This document shows positions 33,670-38,665 of a stretch of DNA of 64,000 nucleotides, one piece after another. How positions within the stretch are numbered: position 1 is the first letter of the stretch; the number at the start of each line of letters is the position of its first letter. The stretch is from Rhodobacterales bacterium. GTDB lineage: Bacteria; Pseudomonadota; Alphaproteobacteria; Rhodobacterales; Rhodobacteraceae. The DNA is taken from NCBI GenBank assembly GCA_009993005.1, contig JAACUH010000067.1, positions 6,848 to 70,847 of the forward strand, read 5' to 3'. Made by a program: the position numbers and the translations under genes. The notes under the pieces are model-generated. The model searched no databases. It saw only the letters and a list, made by a program, of their open reading frames with translations, and was not told where the DNA came from.

Positions 33670-34149
33670 ATGGATCTGATGTTTTTCGCGATCTTTCTCG
33701 TGGCGACCTTCGCCGCAGGGGCAACCGGGGCGATGTTCCCGACCGGTGAGTGGTACAAAAGGCTCAACAAACCATCCTGGACGCCGCCCAACTGGGTGTT
33801 TCCTGTGGCCTGGACCTCGATCTACCTGCTGATCGCCTTTGCCGGCGCGCGTGTCGCGCCGCTAAATGGCAATGGCTATGCGATGGCCTTCTGGGCGTTG
33901 CAGATCGCGTTCAATACGCTGTGGACGCCGATTTTCTTTGGCCTGCGGCGGCTCAAGGGGTCGCTGCCGGTGATGGCGGGGCTCTGGCTGGCGGTCGCGG
34001 GGGCGACCGTGACGCATATGCAGCTCGACCTTTGGGCGGGGCTCGCCTTTGTGCCCTATCTGGCCTGGGTGACGGTGGCGGCCGCGCTCAACATCGAAAT
34101 GGCGCGGCTGAACCCGGACGCCGTGCCGCTCGAACCCGCCAAGCTCTGA
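33670..34149 (+). CDS. tspO: tryptophan-rich sensory protein TspO (CrtK)
   Basis: ORF 33670..34149. It is a five-TM Trp-rich protein (NKPSWTPPNWVFPVAWTSIY) at the canonical position after crtB. Confidence 0.92.
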   Translation: MDLMFFAIFLVATFAAGATGAMFPTGEWYKRLNKPSWTPPNWVFPVAWTSIYLLIAFAGARVAPLNGNGYAMAFWALQIAFNTLWTPIFFGLRRLKGSLPVMAGLWLAVAGATVTHMQLDLWAGLAFVPYLAWVTVAAALNIEMARLNPDAVPLEPAKL

Positions 34150-34153
34150 GGCG

Positions 34154-35224
34154 TTACGCGCCCCAGGTCCGGCGCAGCACGCCGATCCAGTTTTCGTGGC
34201 AGAGCTTGCGCAAGAGCGCATCATCATAGCCATGCGCGCGCAGCGCCTCCTGAAACGCCGGCAGGCCGGTGACATCGCCGATCGGCGCAGGGATCTCGGC
34301 GCCGTCGAAGTCCGAGCCAAAGCCGACATGGTCCTCGCCCAGATGCGCGATCAGATGGTCGAGGTGGCGCAGCATCACGTCGTGCCCGAAATCCGGGTCG
34401 CGCCGCCCGTCGGGCCGCAGGAATGCGGTGGCAAAGTTCAGCCCGACCATGCCGCCGCTGTCGCGAATCATGGCAAGCTGCCGGTCGGTGAGGTTGCGCG
34501 CCGAAGGGCAGATGGCATGCGCGTTGGAATGGGTGGCGACCAGGGGCGCGTCGCTGATCGCGGCCACGTCCTCGACCCCCTTGGCATTCATGTGCGACAG
34601 GTCGATCATGATCCGCAGGCGATTGCATTCGCGCACCAGCCGCGTGCCCGCCTCGGTCAGGCCCGGGCCGGTGTCGGGGCTCGATGGATAGCGGAACGGC
34701 ACGCCATGGCCGAATGCGGTGGGCCTGCTCCACACCGGGCCAAGCGACCGCAGACCCATCGCGTGAAACACATGCAGCGCGTCGAGGTCGGGGTCGATCG
34801 CCTCGGCGCCCTCCATATGCATGACGGCAAAGATGATGCCGCGCGCCAGGCAGTGCTCGATCTCGGCCACCGTGCGGCAGATGCGAAAGTCATCGGGCGT
34901 GAGCCGTTCGAGCCCCAGCAGATGCCCCGCTTGCAAGAGCGCCACGGGCTGCGCCTCGGCCAGTGACAGCGCCGGCGGCAAGGGTAGCGCATAGGGCGGA
35001 TGCGCCATCATCTCGTTCATGGCGGCGAGGCCGGGTGCGTCGCTGTCGGGCCGCACGGGAATGTAGATGGCAAAGAACCCGCCCGCGAAATGCCCCTTGC
35101 GCATCCGCGGCAGGTCAAGATGCCCACCGCCCGCCTGCCCGCTCCAGATCGCCTCGCGCCCGGCGGGGTCGGTCATCAGCCGCAGGAGAAGGTCGTTATG
35201 GCCGTCAAGGATGGGAATGGTCAT
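34154..35224 (-). CDS. membrane dipeptidase (peptidase M19 family)
   Basis: ORF 34154..35224 with the ILDGHNDL metal-binding start and the THSNA, GLNF and GSDFDG motifs of renal-dipeptidase-like enzymes. Confidence 0.8.
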   Translation of the reverse strand: MTIPILDGHNDLLLRLMTDPAGREAIWSGQAGGGHLDLPRMRKGHFAGGFFAIYIPVRPDSDAPGLAAMNEMMAHPPYALPLPPALSLAEAQPVALLQAGHLLGLERLTPDDFRICRTVAEIEHCLARGIIFAVMHMEGAEAIDPDLDALHVFHAMGLRSLGPVWSRPTAFGHGVPFRYPSSPDTGPGLTEAGTRLVRECNRLRIMIDLSHMNAKGVEDVAAISDAPLVATHSNAHAICPSARNLTDRQLAMIRDSGGMVGLNFATAFLRPDGRRDPDFGHDVMLRHLDHLIAHLGEDHVGFGSDFDGAEIPAPIGDVTGLPAFQEALRAHGYDDALLRKLCHENWIGVLRRTWGA

Positions 35225-35290: not shown

Positions 35291-36130
35291 TCAGAACCGC
35301 CAGCCCGCCCGGCGCGGCACCCGCATGGCCAACATCGGCTTGAGCCAGGGCGAGGCAAAGCGGTCGAGGTCGAGCGCCTCGTGCACGCCGGTTACCACCT
35401 CACCGCCGATCTGCGTGCGCACGGAGGACCGCGAATAGAACGGTGCGTCGAGCATCCCGAGCACCTGCCGCGGCACCACGCCCGGGTCGGCGCGCGTCTC
35501 GCGCCGCACCTGCCAGAGCGAACGGCGGAAGGGCGTGCGCGGCGGCGCCGTCACCATCTGCGCATCGCCTTGCCCGTCAAAGCGGATCGCGGCGTCGAGC
35601 GTGCTGCCGTCACGGCGCACGGCGTCATAGAAACAGATCGCGCCGTCGCGCGTCGGGTAGCGCCCCCAGGTCCAGAAGCTGAAATCCTTCTCCAGCGCGC
35701 GCGTCCCGAAATTGGCGTCGAAATAGCCGTGCCCCTGCCAGTTCCAGCCTTTCGCCTCGAGCGCGACCTCGATCCGGGCCGAGGGCGCAAAGGGCCGCCA
35801 GACATGCGCGCCATCCGGCGTCAGCGGCAGCTCGACCCCGGTGAGCGCGTCGGGGATCAGCGTGATGGTGCCGCGCACGCGGCTGATGAGGGGCGGGCTG
35901 CTGATTTCGTCGATCCCGATCACCAGCCGGTCGCCCTGCCAGCGCATTGCCGAGGGGCCGACCGTCAGCGCGTCGGATTCGGCGCGCAGCGCGGCGCGGC
36001 CCCGGTCGGTCATGGTGAACCGGCCTCCGGGACCATAGGTCGCCACGTTGATGCAGCAATGGTTGGCAGGCTCTCGCCGGCCCGACCAGGCATACCAGGG
36101 CGAAAAGACCGACCCTATGAACCCGATGAC
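35291..36130 (-). CDS. crtC: hydroxyneurosporene synthase (acyclic carotenoid 1,2-hydratase); start codon unresolved
   Basis: Frame of ORF 35291..36619. CrtC-like sequence starts at the latest at VIGFIGSVFSPWYAWSGRREPANHCC (36130) and continues upstream to about 36211. The first canonical in-frame starts are GTG 36046 and ATG 36013. Confidence 0.8.
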   Translation of the reverse strand, partial: VIGFIGSVFSPWYAWSGRREPANHCCINVATYGPGGRFTMTDRGRAALRAESDALTVGPSAMRWQGDRLVIGIDEISSPPLISRVRGTITLIPDALTGVELPLTPDGAHVWRPFAPSARIEVALEAKGWNWQGHGYFDANFGTRALEKDFSFWTWGRYPTRDGAICFYDAVRRDGSTLDAAIRFDGQGDAQMVTAPPRTPFRRSLWQVRRETRADPGVVPRQVLGMLDAPFYSRSSVRTQIGGEVVTGVHEALDLDRFASPWLKPMLAMRVPRRAGWRF

Positions 36131-37677
36131 CGAGACGGCGCGCTGGCCGTCGTCGCTGATCCCGTCAACATACCACCAGGCGTAGCCGTCGGGCGGGACG
36201 TCGAGCGCAAAGCAAGGTCTTGCGTGATCGCCGCGGCCGCGTGCCGGGCGGAGAGCACCGCCATCGGCACCCCCGCCCCCGGATGCGCCCCGCCCCCCGT
36301 CAGGTAGAGCCCCGCGAGCGCCGTGCGCGCCCGTGGCCGTGCCAGCCCCGCCGTCAGCCCATGCGGGCTCTGCCCGTAAAGCGAACCGCGGCTGCCCGGA
36401 AACATCCGCGCAAAGCCCTGCGGCGTGGTCAGGCTCTCGGGCCCCGGGGCGGGGGTAAAGGTCAGGCCGAACCGCTCCAGCCGGGAAAACACCTGTGTCT
36501 GGCATTGGCGGATCTCCTCTTGCGTCTCGGGTGTCTCGCCCGCAGGCGCGCCGTTCAATATGATCTCGAACCGCTCCGGCCCCCCGGGCGCAGCACCTGC
36601 GCCCCGGTCCTGTGCACAAAGGTAGAGCGTGGCGTCGGTCGGGCGCGCTCCCTGGTCCAGTGCCGCGAATTCTGCGCGCGGGTCGTCGCCGAAAAACACC
36701 GTGTGATGGGCGAGCGGCGGGCCGCTGACCGTCGCCGCAAAGGCATGGACATAGGCCGAGAGGCTGCGCGCCTCGAGCGGGCGCGCCTTGACCGCCTTTG
36801 TCACGCCTGGCCCCAGGAGGCCGGTGGCCAGCGCGCGCGGGTCGCCGTTGAACAGCACCGCGTCTGCGGCGATCCGGCCTTGCGGCGTGACCACGGCCGA
36901 GGCGCGGCCGCCCTGCACCTCTACCCTATGCGCGGGCGTGGTGTAGAGAAAGGTCGCGCCGCGCGCGCGGGCCAGCGCCTCGAGCGTTTGCGCGAGCCGG
37001 TGCATCCCGCCTGTCACCGCCCAGACGCCGCGCGCCTCGGAATGCGCGATCAGCGCGAGCAGCGCGGGCGACAGATATGGCGAACCGCCGACATAGGTCG
37101 CATAGCGCGCGAAAAGCTGCGCGAGGCGCGGGTCGCTGAAAGCGCCGCGCAGCATGGCGGCGAGACTGCAGTGTGGGGCCATGTCGGCGATCAGCCGGGG
37201 CCTGCGGGCGACGGTCGCCACGAGCACGCGTTGCGATGGCGCGGCGGTCTGCATCATCGGCGCGTCAAAGGCCTCGTAGAGGCGCGCCGCACGGGCGGCA
37301 AAGCTGCGGAACTCGGCCGCAGCCCTGGGGCCAAAGGCGGTCGCGACATTCGCCGCACTCGCCTCCGTGTCGGCCATCAGGTCGAGCGTCGCGCCATCGG
37401 CCCAGTAATGGCGCGCAAGCACCGGCAGCGGCGCGAGCGTGAGGTGGTCCTCGAGCGTTTCACCCAGATCGGCGAACAGCGCCTCGAACACCGGCCGCAT
37501 GGTCAGCACGGTCGGCCCGGCATCGACCGGCCCCGCGACCGAGGGCACCTGCCGCATCTTGCCACCCGGCGTCGCCATTGCCTCGATCACCGTGACAGCA
37601 TGGCCCGCATGGGCCAGCCGCGCAGCGGCGGCGAGCCCGCCAATTCCGGCGCCGATGATGACAACGTGGTTTTTCAA
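36115..37677 (-). CDS. crtD: methoxyneurosporene/hydroxyneurosporene desaturase
   Basis: ORF track 36115..37827, trimmed to TTG 37677 (KNHVVIIGAGIGGLAAAARLA FAD fold) with an AGGAGGG Shine-Dalgarno 5 nt upstream. The C-terminal GGGAHPGAGVPMA motif is present. Confidence 0.9.
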   Translation of the reverse strand: MKNHVVIIGAGIGGLAAAARLAHAGHAVTVIEAMATPGGKMRQVPSVAGPVDAGPTVLTMRPVFEALFADLGETLEDHLTLAPLPVLARHYWADGATLDLMADTEASAANVATAFGPRAAAEFRSFAARAARLYEAFDAPMMQTAAPSQRVLVATVARRPRLIADMAPHCSLAAMLRGAFSDPRLAQLFARYATYVGGSPYLSPALLALIAHSEARGVWAVTGGMHRLAQTLEALARARGATFLYTTPAHRVEVQGGRASAVVTPQGRIAADAVLFNGDPRALATGLLGPGVTKAVKARPLEARSLSAYVHAFAATVSGPPLAHHTVFFGDDPRAEFAALDQGARPTDATLYLCAQDRGAGAAPGGPERFEIILNGAPAGETPETQEEIRQCQTQVFSRLERFGLTFTPAPGPESLTTPQGFARMFPGSRGSLYGQSPHGLTAGLARPRARTALAGLYLTGGGAHPGAGVPMAVLSARHAAAAITQDLALRSTSRPTATPGGMLTGSATTASAPSRSSGS

Positions 37678-37717
37678 GGTCCCTCCTGCCCGCGATAGTT
37701 GACTCGCGCGCGGAAAC

Positions 37718-37735
37718 TGTCCAGTCTGATTGACA
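37718..37735. promoter_or_regulatory. PpsR/CrtJ palindrome TGTCCAGTCTGATTGACA
   Basis: A perfect TGT-N12-ACA site in the crtD/crtE divergent spacer. Confidence 0.85.
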
Positions 37736-37742
37736 CATAGAC

Positions 37743-37760
37743 TGTCTGATTTGTCTGACA
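37743..37760. promoter_or_regulatory. PpsR/CrtJ palindrome TGTCTGATTTGTCTGACA
   Basis: A perfect TGT-N12-ACA site, 7 bp from the previous palindrome (tandem pair). Confidence 0.85.
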
Positions 37761-37783
37761 GTTGCCGGTCGAGGGAGACCAGA

Positions 37784-38665
37784 ATGGGCATTTCGAGCCG
37801 GATCGACGCGGCGATGGCCGCCGCCATCCGCAGCGGGCAGGGCGCGCAGGCGCCCGCGCGGCTCGCCGCGGCGCTGGGCTATGCGGTGACGCCGGGCGGC
37901 GCGCGGATCAGGCCGACGATCCTGATGTCGGTGGCGCTCGCCTGTGGCGACGACCGGCCCGCGCTGTCGGATGCGGCGGCGGCGGCGCTCGAACTCATCC
38001 ATTGCGCGAGCCTCGTGCATGACGATCTGCCCTGTTTTGACGATGCCGACATGCGGCGCGGCAAGCCCGCGGTGCACCGCGCATTCTCGCAGCCGCTCGC
38101 CGTGCTTGCAGGTGACAGCCTGATCGTGAAGGCGTTCGAGGTGCTGGCGCGGGCGGCGGGACATGATCCTGCGCGCGCGGTGGCGCTGATCGACGTGCTG
38201 GCGGTGCGCACGGGCATGCCCTATGGCATCTGCGCCGGGCAGGGATGGGAAAGCGAGAGCCAGATCGACCTGTCCGCCTACCATCAGGCCAAGACCGGCG
38301 CGCTGTTCATCGCGGCCACGCAGATGGGCGCGATCGCCGCCGGGCAGGACGGGGCAGAGTGGGAAGAGCTGGGCGCGCGCATCGGTGAGGCGTTCCAGGT
38401 CGCCGACGACCTGCGCGATGCGCTGTGTGACGAGGCGACGCTGGGCAAGCCCGCGGGCCAGGACGACCTGCATGGCCGCCCCAATGCGGTGCGCCAACTC
38501 GGCCTGCACGGCGCGTTGGCGCGGCTTGACGATATCCTCGCCGGTGCCATCGCCTCGATCCCCGCCTGCCGGGGCGAGGCGGCGCTCGCGCAGATGGTCC
38601 ATGCCTATGCCGACCGACTGGTGCCCGCCACAGCGCGCAACCGGCCGACGGTTCCCGGGGAATAG
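37784..38665 (+). CDS. crtE: geranylgeranyl diphosphate synthase
   Basis: ORF track 37730..38665, trimmed to ATG 37784. It has the polyprenyl synthase motifs LVHDDLPCFDDADMRRG and FQVADDL. Confidence 0.92.
   Translation: MGISSRIDAAMAAAIRSGQGAQAPARLAAALGYAVTPGGARIRPTILMSVALACGDDRPALSDAAAAALELIHCASLVHDDLPCFDDADMRRGKPAVHRAFSQPLAVLAGDSLIVKAFEVLARAAGHDPARAVALIDVLAVRTGMPYGICAGQGWESESQIDLSAYHQAKTGALFIAATQMGAIAAGQDGAEWEELGARIGEAFQVADDLRDALCDEATLGKPAGQDDLHGRPNAVRQLGLHGALARLDDILAGAIASIPACRGEAALAQMVHAYADRLVPATARNRPTVPGE

What the first reader, a model, noticed from the sequence alone, without database searches (positions are those of the whole stretch)
36013..36211. CrtC-like reading frame continues about 65 codons upstream of its first ATG and about 30 codons into crtD, with no canonical start codon
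On the minus strand the crtC frame reads FALDVPPDGYAWWYVDGISDDGQRAVSVIGFIGSVFSPWYAWSGRREPANHCCINVATYGPGGRFTMTDRG. The GYAWWYVD..SDDG and IGSVFSPWY segments match what I remember as the conserved N-terminus of hydroxyneurosporene synthases. The only canonical in-frame starts are GTG 36046 and ATG 36013, both downstream of these motifs, and then nothing until ATG 36505, deep inside crtD. Bases 36115-36211 are simultaneously read in the crtD frame as ...ALRSTSRPTATPGGMLTGSATTASAPSRSSGS-stop. Possible explanations are non-canonical initiation (the codon aligned to the Rhodobacter-type start is GTC at 36130), a dual-coding overlap with an unusual re-initiation mechanism, a truncated CrtC, or a base error.
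Basis: partly seen in the sequence, partly recalled or inferred. Interest (0 to 1): 0.6.

Follow-up and report, generated by a model that had tools for sequence, protein, structure and literature searches.

The report
crtC starts inside crtD
The carotenoid hydratase gene crtC does have a normal start codon: a conserved ATG with a ribosome-binding site about 100 codons further upstream, inside the preceding gene crtD in another reading frame. The puzzle is therefore a mis-called gene start that hides a real, ancient overlap of about 390 bases between the two genes.

Summary
On the minus strand the conserved CrtC core (FALDVPPDGYAWWYVDG...) begins at 36211, inside the crtD reading frame. The only nearby in-frame starts, GTG 36046 and ATG 36013, lie downstream of conserved core sequence. 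No unusual mechanism is needed, though.

- It is present in 77/77 Roseobacter-group loci, in 75/81 loci from Sphingomonadales, Methylobacterium, Hyphomicrobium, Beta- and Gammaproteobacteria, and in Rhodobacter capsulatus.
- It is built from an invariant wobble A of an otherwise variable CrtD codon plus a conserved CrtD Cys codon.
- A GGAG-type Shine-Dalgarno sequence precedes it in 71/77 loci (6% background).
- No stop codon follows it in 7,392 codons. About 21/77 open frames would be expected from the CrtD protein and codon usage.

The product is 404 aa. Residues 1-82 are predicted disordered and Gly/Ala/Pro/Arg-rich; an AttH-like core follows. This matches the characterised 44-kDa CrtCs of Rubrivivax and Thiocapsa. 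Frameshifting, non-canonical initiation, truncation and base error are all poorly supported. Database starts giving 240-311 aa, the 278-aa NCBIfam model and the classical 281-aa R. capsulatus CrtC all look N-terminally truncated. Translation from this ATG is inferred, not shown.

The parts
35291..36505 (-). Proposed full-length crtC: ATG 36505-36503 to TGA 35293-35291, 404 aa
   Evidence: Translation. NCBIfam NF045922 scores 523.6 bits against a cut-off of 400. The long ORFs in relatives are 397-420 aa. ATG, Shine-Dalgarno sequence and open frame are conserved.
36503..36505 (-). Conserved crtC start codon ATG, made of the wobble A of crtD codon CAA (Gln) plus the TG of the crtD Cys codon TGC
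   Evidence: ATG is present in 77/77 loci. The preceding CrtD codon varies in meaning (Q/T/P/A/R/E/K/S/L/I) but always ends in A. About 18/77 would be expected from codon usage. In the diverse set 74/81 loci have the ATG over a crtD Cys codon.
36514..36519 (-). Shine-Dalgarno sequence GAGGAG, 8 nt upstream of the ATG. It encodes Glu-Glu in crtD
   Evidence: Sequence. A strict GGAG/GAGG/AGGA motif lies at -17..-5 in 71/77 loci, against 6.3% of background positions within crtD, and in 74 of the 75 diverse-set loci that have the ATG.
36212..36502 (-). Rest of the 98-codon N-terminal leader of CrtC (codons 2-98), read in the -1 frame over the conserved C-terminal domain of CrtD
   Evidence: AlphaFold2 gives pLDDT below 50 for residues 1-82. 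Composition is G22 A20 P11 R11 of 98, with 16% Pro in the first 50 residues. There are no stops in 77 loci. Pairwise identity is 0.47 in the crtC frame and 0.67 in the crtD frame.
36013..36211 (-). The finding's interval: start of the conserved CrtC core (F99 to T164 of the 404-aa protein, plus the Met165 codon ATG 36013)
   Evidence: Conserved with synonymous variation in 80 loci. It forms strands 108-117, 123-130 and 150-157 at pLDDT above 90.
36115..37677 (-). crtD: probable start TTG 37677 (AGGAGG 4 nt upstream), stop TAG 36117-36115, 520 aa
   Evidence: NCBIfam NF045637 scores 711.9 bits and covers residues 55-537 of the 570-aa ORF that starts at ATG 37827. The start region is shown.
36118..36216 (-). 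Non-conserved 33-residue tail of CrtD, the passive frame over the conserved CrtC core
   Evidence: The crtD stop falls 5 to 56 residues after the last conserved Asp in different species. Identity here is 0.51 in the crtD frame and 0.76 in the crtC frame.
36115..36505 (-). crtD/crtC same-strand, out-of-frame overlap of 391 nt (crtC frame = crtD frame -1)
   Evidence: Variability at crtD four-fold sites falls to 1.11 bits, against 1.48 bits upstream (p = 3e-6).

Best explanation
crtC is translated from the ATG at 36505-36503. This ATG is preceded by the Shine-Dalgarno sequence GAGGAG and lies inside the 3' part of crtD in the -1 frame. The product is a 404-aa carotenoid 1,2-hydratase. Its first ~82-98 residues form a Gly/Ala/Pro/Arg-rich, predicted disordered leader that is read passively from DNA whose sequence is dictated by the conserved C-terminal domain of CrtD. 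Its folded AttH-like core starts near Pro97/Phe99 at 36211. Downstream of the last conserved CrtD residue (Asp, GAC 36219-36217) the roles swap: crtC becomes the constrained frame, and CrtD runs on as a variable tail until it meets a stop by chance. Shown here: conservation of the ATG, of the Shine-Dalgarno sequence and of the open frame; the switch of constraint between the two frames; and the predicted structure. Inferred: that ribosomes actually initiate at this ATG. The shorter database proteins (240-311 aa) are start-codon miscalls.
For: - **ATG.** It sits 98 (or 96 or 102) codons upstream of the core Phe in 77/77 Rhodobacterales loci.
- **Wobble A.** The A of the ATG is the wobble base of a CrtD codon whose amino acid varies. 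It is always A; 18.2/77 would be expected.
- **Shine-Dalgarno.** A strict motif is present in 71/77 loci, against a 6.3% background.
- **Open frame.** There are 0 stops in 7,392 crtC-frame codons after the ATG, against 6-55 per 1,540 codons in the same frame upstream. Stops occur at -100 to -104 in several loci. Given each CrtD protein and its own codon usage, 20.6/77 open frames are expected and 77 are observed. In the window, three crtD-silent single changes would create a crtC stop.
- **Synonymous sites.** crtD four-fold sites are less variable in the overlap: 1.11 against 1.48 bits, and 0.65 in the last 20 codons.
- **Core upstream of Phe.** Pro at -2 is kept with all four codons while the CrtD residue there varies.
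- **Breadth.** The same geometry (ATG on the CrtD Cys codon, HPGxGxP motif 24 codons before Phe) is found in 75/81 loci from Sphingomonadales, Methylobacterium, Hyphomicrobium, Ectothiorhodospira, Halochromatium, Variovorax and low-GC Polynucleobacter. It is also found in 8 of the 9 Rhodobacter-named loci, including R. capsulatus DSM 1710.
- **Gene callers.** Many gene callers already predict 401-410-aa proteins.
- **Structure.** AlphaFold2 gives residues 1-82 as disordered and the fold as confident from about residue 90.
- **Biochemistry.** RgCrtC and TrCrtC, expressed from their full-length ORFs, are 44-kDa enzymes. Their proline-rich N-terminal 45-57 residues are dispensable for activity (PMC3145076, PMC4717167).
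Against: - There is no direct evidence of initiation at this ATG: no N-terminal peptide and no ribosome profiling, in this or any relative.
- Initiation would have to occur inside a gene that ribosomes are translating in another frame.
- The loci are phylogenetically related, so the counts are not independent events.
- Four species also carry an ATG directly before the core Phe, so a shorter product could be made there.
- 6 of 81 diverse loci lack the ATG at the expected place.
- R. capsulatus CrtC has been reported as active after heterologous expression (Steiger et al. 2003, cited in PMC3145076). I could not check which ORF was used.
Confidence: 0.88

Rival explanations
1. A programmed -1 ribosomal frameshift near the end of crtD carries ribosomes into the crtC frame and makes a CrtD-CrtC fusion protein.
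For: The crtC frame is the -1 frame of crtD, and the frame is open across the junction. A G_GGG_GGC heptamer lies 28 codons upstream of Phe in the window and in 29/77 loci. A few database ORFs read as merged CrtD-CrtC proteins (P0257 of 829 aa, P0136 of 595 aa).
Against: No slippery heptamer is conserved; the best position is present in only 29/77 loci and comes from Gly-Gly codons. Frameshifting explains neither the invariant ATG 98 codons upstream, nor its Shine-Dalgarno sequence, nor why the frame is closed just upstream of that ATG. In P0257 the merged reading replaces the CrtD C-terminal part that holds the conserved GGGxHPGxGxP motif with the crtC-frame reading, which looks like an indel error.
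Confidence: 0.03
2. Non-canonical initiation close to the core, for example at GTC 36130 (the Rhodobacter-type start position) or at a codon next to Phe 36211.
For: The NCBIfam CrtC model begins at 36130. In some relatives that valine is GTG or ATG and is annotated as the start.
Against: The codon at 36130 is GTC, GTG, GTT or GTA across species, as expected for an internal valine. The codon before Phe is TGC, AAC, TTC, CAG, ATG, GTC, CGG and others. No position near the core holds a start or near-cognate codon consistently. The 28 residues upstream of 36130, and Pro at -2, are under purifying selection.
Confidence: 0.03
3. The functional CrtC here is the short protein from GTG 36046 or ATG 36013 (251 or 240 aa), and the upstream homology is a relic.
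For: These are the only canonical starts near the core. A 240-aa protein is what some gene callers report (P0006, P0115). Met165 is ATG in all 80 loci.
Against: The supposed relic is among the best-conserved parts of the protein: 0.76 pairwise identity with synonymous codon variation. It forms three strands and a helix of the first beta-barrel at pLDDT above 90. GTG 36046 is not conserved. The conserved Met is equally explained as a structural residue.
Confidence: 0.03
4. A sequencing or assembly error (missing or extra base, or GTC instead of GTG) creates the apparent lack of a start.
For: None beyond the oddity itself. Indel-like frame merges do occur in other assemblies (L172 Rhodobacter viridis).
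Against: Contigs from four metagenome runs match 35900-36600 with no difference. The same arrangement is present in more than 150 other genomes.
Confidence: 0.005

Closest known systems
Long-form (44-kDa, about 400-aa) carotenoid 1,2-hydratases RgCrtC (Rubrivivax gelatinosus) and TrCrtC (Thiocapsa roseopersicina), Hiseni et al. 2011 and 2015 (PMC3145076, PMC4717167)
   Same: Same enzyme family. Same length class (404 aa here). Same non-conserved, proline-rich N-terminal part, which those authors showed to be dispensable for activity (truncations of 45 and 57 residues). The catalytic residues H239/W241/Y266/D268 (Rg numbering) correspond to the invariant H234/W236/Y261/D263 here.
   Different: Those papers treat shorter CrtCs as naturally lacking the N-terminal part. 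They do not mention that it is encoded in the crtD frame overlap. Here the leader is shown to be encoded wherever crtD precedes crtC, including in genomes annotated with short CrtCs. Activity of the window's protein was not tested.
Classical Rhodobacter CrtC annotation (281 aa in R. capsulatus; NCBIfam NF045922 CarotHydtaseCrtCRhod, 278 aa)
   Same: Closest sequence family. The window protein scores 523.6 bits over model positions 1-278.
   Different: The model and the annotation begin at MIAFIGSVF. That is 28 residues inside the conserved core and about 125 codons after the conserved ATG, which R. capsulatus also has together with an AGGAGG. The window has GTC at the model's start position.
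AttH-like double beta-barrel fold: PDB 2ICH, kievitone hydratase 7A0T, the Diels-Alderases Fsa2/Phm7/CghA, and 25-phosphosteroid lyase
   Same: The predicted core (residues ~99-404) matches these by Foldseek, with E from 2e-10 to 8e-7 and probability 1.0. Several of them are cofactor-independent enzymes acting on hydrophobic substrates.
   Different: Sequence identity is only 8-16%, and a profile search of PDB sequences finds nothing. None of them has the overprinted leader.
Long same-strand overlapping genes made by overprinting (common in viruses, rare and often doubted in bacteria)
   Same: Two proteins are read from one strand in different frames over 391 nt. One frame is constrained and the other is a disordered, compositionally biased read-out. 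Synonymous variation in the older frame is reduced.
   Different: Only an N-terminal leader is overprinted here, not a whole new gene. The constrained frame swaps within the overlap. I did not test when the arrangement arose.
Programmed -1 frameshifting (dnaX, IS3-family transposases)
   Same: A downstream ORF lies in the -1 frame with no nearby start codon.
   Different: There is no conserved slippery heptamer. A conserved ATG and Shine-Dalgarno sequence exist instead.

Membership tests
CrtC carotenoid 1,2-hydratase (NCBIfam NF045922) | Profile score above the curated cut-off over the whole model | tested here: met
   523.6 bits against a cut-off of 400, model positions 1-278 of 278.
CrtC carotenoid 1,2-hydratase (NCBIfam NF045922) | Catalytically important His, Trp, Tyr and Asp (H239, W241, Y266, D268 in RgCrtC; PMC4717167) | tested here: met
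   H234, W236, Y261 and D263 are invariant columns in the 63-sequence alignment A2. The spacing is the same as in RgCrtC.
CrtC carotenoid 1,2-hydratase (NCBIfam NF045922) | Sits in a photosynthesis or carotenoid gene cluster next to crtD | tested here: met
   crtD (NF045637, 711.9 bits) lies immediately upstream. ORFs whose sequences I recognise as CrtE-like (37730-38665) and TspO-like (33670-34149) lie nearby; these two were not run against profiles.
CrtC carotenoid 1,2-hydratase (NCBIfam NF045922) | [quoted passage not shown] | not testable with these tools
   This needs an enzyme assay or a knockout phenotype.
Long-form 44-kDa CrtC (RgCrtC/TrCrtC type) | About 400 aa, with a non-conserved proline-rich N-terminal part ahead of the conserved core | tested here: met
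   404 aa, 8 Pro in the first 50 residues (16%), leader identity 0.47, residues 1-82 at pLDDT below 50.
Long-form 44-kDa CrtC (RgCrtC/TrCrtC type) | Translation actually starts at the upstream ATG in the native host | not testable with these tools
   Only comparative evidence is available. I found no proteomic or ribosome-profiling data.
Programmed -1 ribosomal frameshift site | Conserved slippery heptamer X_XXY_YYZ in the upstream frame | tested here: not met
   The best position is present in only 29/77 loci (G_GGG_GGC from Gly-Gly codons). No position between the CrtD end and the CrtC core is conserved.
Programmed -1 ribosomal frameshift site | Downstream stimulatory hairpin or pseudoknot | not tested
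   Not pursued, because the slippery-site test failed.
Functional same-strand overlapping gene pair | The second frame is kept open and has its own conserved start signals, beyond what the first frame's protein imposes | tested here: met
   77/77 frames are open against 20.6 expected, and wobble A is present in 77/77 against 18.2 expected. Shine-Dalgarno motif in 71/77 against a 6.3% background.
Functional same-strand overlapping gene pair | Reduced synonymous variation in the first frame inside the overlap | tested here: met
   Third-position entropy at four-fold sites is 1.11 bits inside the overlap and 1.48 bits upstream, Mann-Whitney p = 2.8e-6.

The most novel reading that the evidence does not exclude
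The ~100-codon leader is not just a passive by-product of where the start codon happens to lie. On this reading it is a conserved device. Placing the crtC ribosome-binding site and ATG inside actively translated crtD would tie CrtC output to CrtD translation, or the disordered Pro/Arg/Gly-rich leader would tether the hydratase to the membrane or to CrtD as a small carotenoid metabolon. That would explain why the exact geometry has been held across Alpha-, Beta- and Gammaproteobacteria: the ATG on one CrtD Cys codon, and 24 codons from the HPGxGxP motif to the core Phe. Loci without this crtD arrangement immediately upstream have canonical starts closer to the core (L167: TTG 10 codons before Phe), and some database CrtCs have only 12-25 residues ahead of it.
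Probability: 0.15. Interest if true: 0.6.

Novelty: new member of a known kind. Interest (0 to 1): 0.4.

Why it matters
- **The puzzle has an ordinary answer.** The same apparent no-start-codon problem was flagged independently in at least seven other genomes of this scan. The answer can be transferred to all of them.
- **Annotation is systematically wrong.** RefSeq and other pipelines call CrtC at whatever ATG, GTG or TTG happens to lie inside the core, giving 240-311 aa. The curated NCBIfam model and the textbook 281-aa R. capsulatus protein start 28 residues inside the conserved fold. Constructs made from those annotations would lack the first beta-strand of the core, or the first three plus a helix for the 240-aa call.
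- **The overlap itself is unusual.** A 300-390-nt same-strand, out-of-frame overlap held with fixed geometry across three proteobacterial classes is one of the better-supported long gene overlaps in bacteria. It shows cleanly how the constrained frame can swap within an overlap.

Tried and rejected
- **Pfam.** The scan of the crtC frame gave no hit. The family PF27123 that is precomputed for homologues is evidently newer than the copy on hand.
- **Slippery site.** Reading the codon alignment between the CrtD end and the CrtC core showed that the intervening codons vary freely. A systematic heptamer scan found nothing conserved.
- **Non-canonical start.** Codons at -1, +3, +5 and at 36130 vary among non-start codons.
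- **First attempt to fetch Rhodobacter.** I used representative P0181 (281 aa), which turned out to be a MAG with Polynucleobacter relatives. That was useful as a low-GC control but was not Rhodobacter. A back-translated MIAFIGSVFSPWY pattern then worked.
- **Literature.** Searches for an explicit description of the crtD/crtC overlap found none. A search for proteogenomic start-site evidence also found none. The original sequence papers are not held, so I cannot say whether they noted the overlap: Armstrong 1989 (no id tried), Lang 1995, Ouchane 1997 and Kovacs 2003.
- **Monte-Carlo resampling.** The first version timed out. It was replaced by an exact dynamic-programming calculation.
- **Profile search of PDB sequences.** No hit.
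Full report
**1. Observation**

On the minus strand, the frame that ends at TGA 35293-35291 is open up to 36925. Near the conserved core the only in-frame ATG/GTG/TTG codons are GTG 36046 and ATG 36013. The next one upstream is ATG 36505. The crtD frame runs through the same DNA to TAG 36117-36115.

The NCBIfam CrtC equivalog NF045922 (278 aa) matches at 523.6 bits, and its position 1 falls on GTC 36130. The CrtD equivalog NF045637 ends at about the Asp of ...AITQD, leaving a 33-residue tail outside the model. Contigs from four metagenome runs (aquifer, hot-spring and cold-spring samples) reproduce 35900-36600 without any difference.

**2. The core upstream of the nearby starts is translated**

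I fetched 80 species-level relatives from genome contigs, at 70-82% CrtC identity. In all of them the crtC frame reads F-x-[LI]-x-V-P-P-x-G-Y-A-W-W-Y-[VI]-D-G..., with synonymous codon variation: TAT/TAC, GCN, GGN, CCN. The crtD-frame reading of the same bases is not conserved. The crtD stop falls anywhere from 5 to 56 residues after the last conserved Asp.

Pro at -2 relative to the core Phe uses all four codons, while the overlapping CrtD residue varies among L, H, R, P and Q. The valine at the Rhodobacter-type start position is GTC, GTG, GTT or GTA, and the codon before Phe is almost free. Only 4 of 80 species have ATG there. Annotators have accordingly picked scattered starts, giving proteins of 240, 271-291 and 302-314 aa. 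No canonical or near-cognate start close to the core is conserved.

**3. The real start**

Extending the view upstream showed an ATG in the crtC frame in all 77 loci with enough flank. It lies 98 codons before Phe in 70 loci, 96 in 6 and 102 in 1. In the window it is ATG 36505. Four lines of evidence mark it as a selected start codon.

- *The ATG itself.* Its A is the wobble base of a CrtD codon whose amino acid varies (CAA, ACA, CCA, GCA, AGA, GAA, AAA, TCA, CTA, CGA, ATA). The base is always A. The TG belongs to a conserved CrtD Cys codon. From each locus's own codon usage, 18.2/77 wobble A's are expected.
- *Shine-Dalgarno sequence.* A strict GGAG/GAGG/AGGA motif lies 5-17 nt upstream in 71/77 loci, against 6.3% of positions elsewhere in crtD. 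In the window it is GAGGAG at 36519-36514, 8 nt from the ATG.
- *Open frame.* From the ATG to the core there is no stop in 7,392 codons. The same frame upstream carries 6-55 stops per 1,540 codons, several of them at -100 to -104. The third frame is full of stops within the overlap. An exact calculation that keeps each CrtD protein fixed and draws synonymous codons from its own usage expects 20.6/77 open frames; 77 are observed. In the window, three crtD-silent single-base changes would create a crtC stop.
- *Synonymous sites.* Third-position entropy at conserved four-fold crtD codons drops from 1.48 bits upstream to 1.11 in the overlap, and to 0.65 in the last 20 codons (p = 3e-6).

**4. Breadth**

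A second scan used a profile of distant long-form CrtCs. It returned Sphingomonadales, Methylobacterium, Hyphomicrobium, Rhodomicrobium, Caulobacteraceae, Ectothiorhodospira and Halochromatium (Gammaproteobacteria) and Variovorax (Betaproteobacteria).

- In 75/81 loci there is an ATG 95-100 codons before the core Phe.
- 74 of these lie over a crtD Cys codon, 74 have a strict Shine-Dalgarno motif, and all 75 are open to the core.
- In most loci the crtD motif HPGxGxP lies exactly 24 codons before Phe.

The low-GC Polynucleobacter locus shows the same arrangement, with stops just upstream of the ATG and many stops in the third frame.

A back-translated MIAFIGSVFSPWY pattern fetched Rhodobacter capsulatus (including DSM 1710), R. 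lacus, R. maris, R. aestuarii and others. There the classical 281-aa start is preceded in frame by GGPDFRREVGPNGYAWWYCDGISDDGEKAFS. An ATG 125 codons upstream sits behind AGGAGG and again overlaps the CrtD Cys codon.

One locus in that set, L167, has no crtD upstream. It has stops in the crtC frame upstream of the core and a TTG 10 codons before Phe. Representative CrtCs with 12-25 residues before Phe also exist. The long leader therefore goes with the crtD-crtC arrangement, not with the enzyme family as such.

**5. What the protein looks like**

The 404-aa product was modelled with a 63-sequence alignment. Mean pLDDT is 82.4 and pTM is 0.77. Residues 1-82 are below pLDDT 50, and confidence rises from about residue 83 and exceeds 85 from about residue 91.

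Strands 108-117, 123-130 and 150-157 and helix 136-140 all lie upstream of Met165, which is ATG 36013. A 240-aa protein would therefore lack part of the first barrel. Foldseek places the core with the AttH-like protein 2ICH, kievitone hydratase, the fungal Diels-Alderases and 25-phosphosteroid lyase (E from 2e-10 to 8e-7). A sequence profile finds nothing in the PDB. The residues that Hiseni et al. found essential correspond to the invariant H234, W236, Y261 and D263 (PMC4717167).

The leader is G/A/P/R-rich, with 16% Pro in its first 50 residues. This matches the proline-rich N-terminal part described for RgCrtC and TrCrtC. That part is absent from the active 38-kDa processed form, and its deletion (45 or 57 residues) leaves activity intact (PMC3145076, PMC4717167).

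**6. How the overlap is organised**

From the ATG to the last conserved CrtD residue (36505-36217), the crtD frame is the better conserved one: pairwise identity 0.67 against 0.47. From the core Phe onward the crtC frame is: 0.76 against 0.51. The switch lies within a few codons of position -3.

Each stretch of DNA therefore has one master frame and one passive read-out. The passive read-outs are the disordered CrtC leader and the variable CrtD tail. What selection clearly maintains in the passive part of crtC is the start signal and the absence of stops. The stronger loss of synonymous variation in the last 20 codons suggests that residues about -18 to -1 already matter to CrtC.

**7. Rivals**

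- *A -1 frameshift fusion.* There is no conserved slippery site; the best is G_GGG_GGC in 29/77 loci. Frameshifting also does not explain the ATG, the Shine-Dalgarno sequence or the upstream boundary of the open frame.
- *Non-canonical initiation near the core.* This is contradicted by the free variation of the candidate codons.
- *A truncated functional CrtC.* This is contradicted by purifying selection on, and the structural role of, the part that would be missing.
- *Base error.* This is excluded.

What remains unproven is initiation itself. I found no proteomic or ribosome-profiling evidence. The original sequence papers are not in the library, so I cannot say whether the overlap was noted there. 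The accessible reviews and the Hiseni papers do not mention it, and they treat the short forms as real.

**8. Verdict**

The finding is real but has an ordinary mechanism. The crtC start is a conserved ATG with a ribosome-binding site, 98 codons upstream of the core and inside crtD. The window's CrtC is a new member of the known long-form (44-kDa) CrtC class.

Two points of wider interest follow.

- The crtD/crtC overlap is an ancient same-strand overlap of fixed geometry, conserved across three proteobacterial classes.
- Short CrtC annotations are probably N-terminally truncated. This includes the NCBIfam Rhodobacterales model and the classical R. capsulatus protein.

Seven other first-stage notes of this scan describe the same puzzle in other genomes. 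The same resolution should apply to them.

Noticed in passing
window 37674-37830 (minus strand): The 570-aa crtD ORF from ATG 37827 is probably too long. The CrtD profile starts at residue 55, and TTG 37677 is preceded by AGGAGG (37687-37682) and gives MKNHVVIIGAG (520 aa). The extra 50 codons run across the TGT-N12-ACA palindromes of the crtD/crtE spacer.
   Followed up: partly
L172 (Rhodobacter viridis JA737), about 45 codons upstream of the CrtC core Phe: The crtD frame and the crtC-leader frame are swapped by an apparent 1-nt indel. As a result crtD reads into the crtC frame (...SGGWGTHPGAGVPMALTSG...). This is either an assembly error or a broken or fused crtD in this strain.
   Followed up: no
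P0257 (829 aa), P0136 (595 aa), L151:2480-4120 (547-aa ORF): Some database ORFs read as single CrtD-CrtC or otherwise extended CrtC proteins. In P0257 the reading passes from the CrtD frame into the CrtC-leader frame upstream of the GGGxHPGxGxP motif. These are probably indel errors, but natural in-frame fusions were not excluded.
   Followed up: no
L082, L084, L092, L095, L123, L129, L136 and others (diverse set), 49 codons upstream of the core Phe: A second in-frame ATG at -49 recurs in 24 of the 81 diverse loci analysed. It is absent from the Roseobacter group and from the window. It could be an alternative start or a by-product of a conserved CrtD residue.
   Followed up: no
NCBIfam NF045922 against window 36130: The curated 278-aa model for Rhodobacterales CrtC begins 28 residues inside the conserved core. 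90%-identity protein clusters hold both short (279, 302 aa) and long (402, 404 aa) calls of nearly the same protein. This shows inconsistent start calling across pipelines.
   Followed up: yes
window 36284-36290 and 29/77 related loci: The heptamer G_GGG_GGC lies in the crtD frame 28 codons upstream of the CrtC core (Gly-Gly of LTGGGAHPG). It fits the formal slippery-site pattern but is not conserved.
   Followed up: partly
window 35900-36600: Identical sequence occurs in contigs of many aquifer, hot-spring and cold-spring metagenome runs. The organism, or a very close strain, is therefore widespread in groundwater and spring samples.
   Followed up: no
window 34154-35224 (minus strand): A 356-aa ORF lies between crtC and the TspO-like ORF. 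An earlier first-reader note (e1-2946488, unchecked) calls it an M19 membrane dipeptidase gene that interrupts the usual Rhodobacter-type tspO-crtC adjacency.
   Followed up: no
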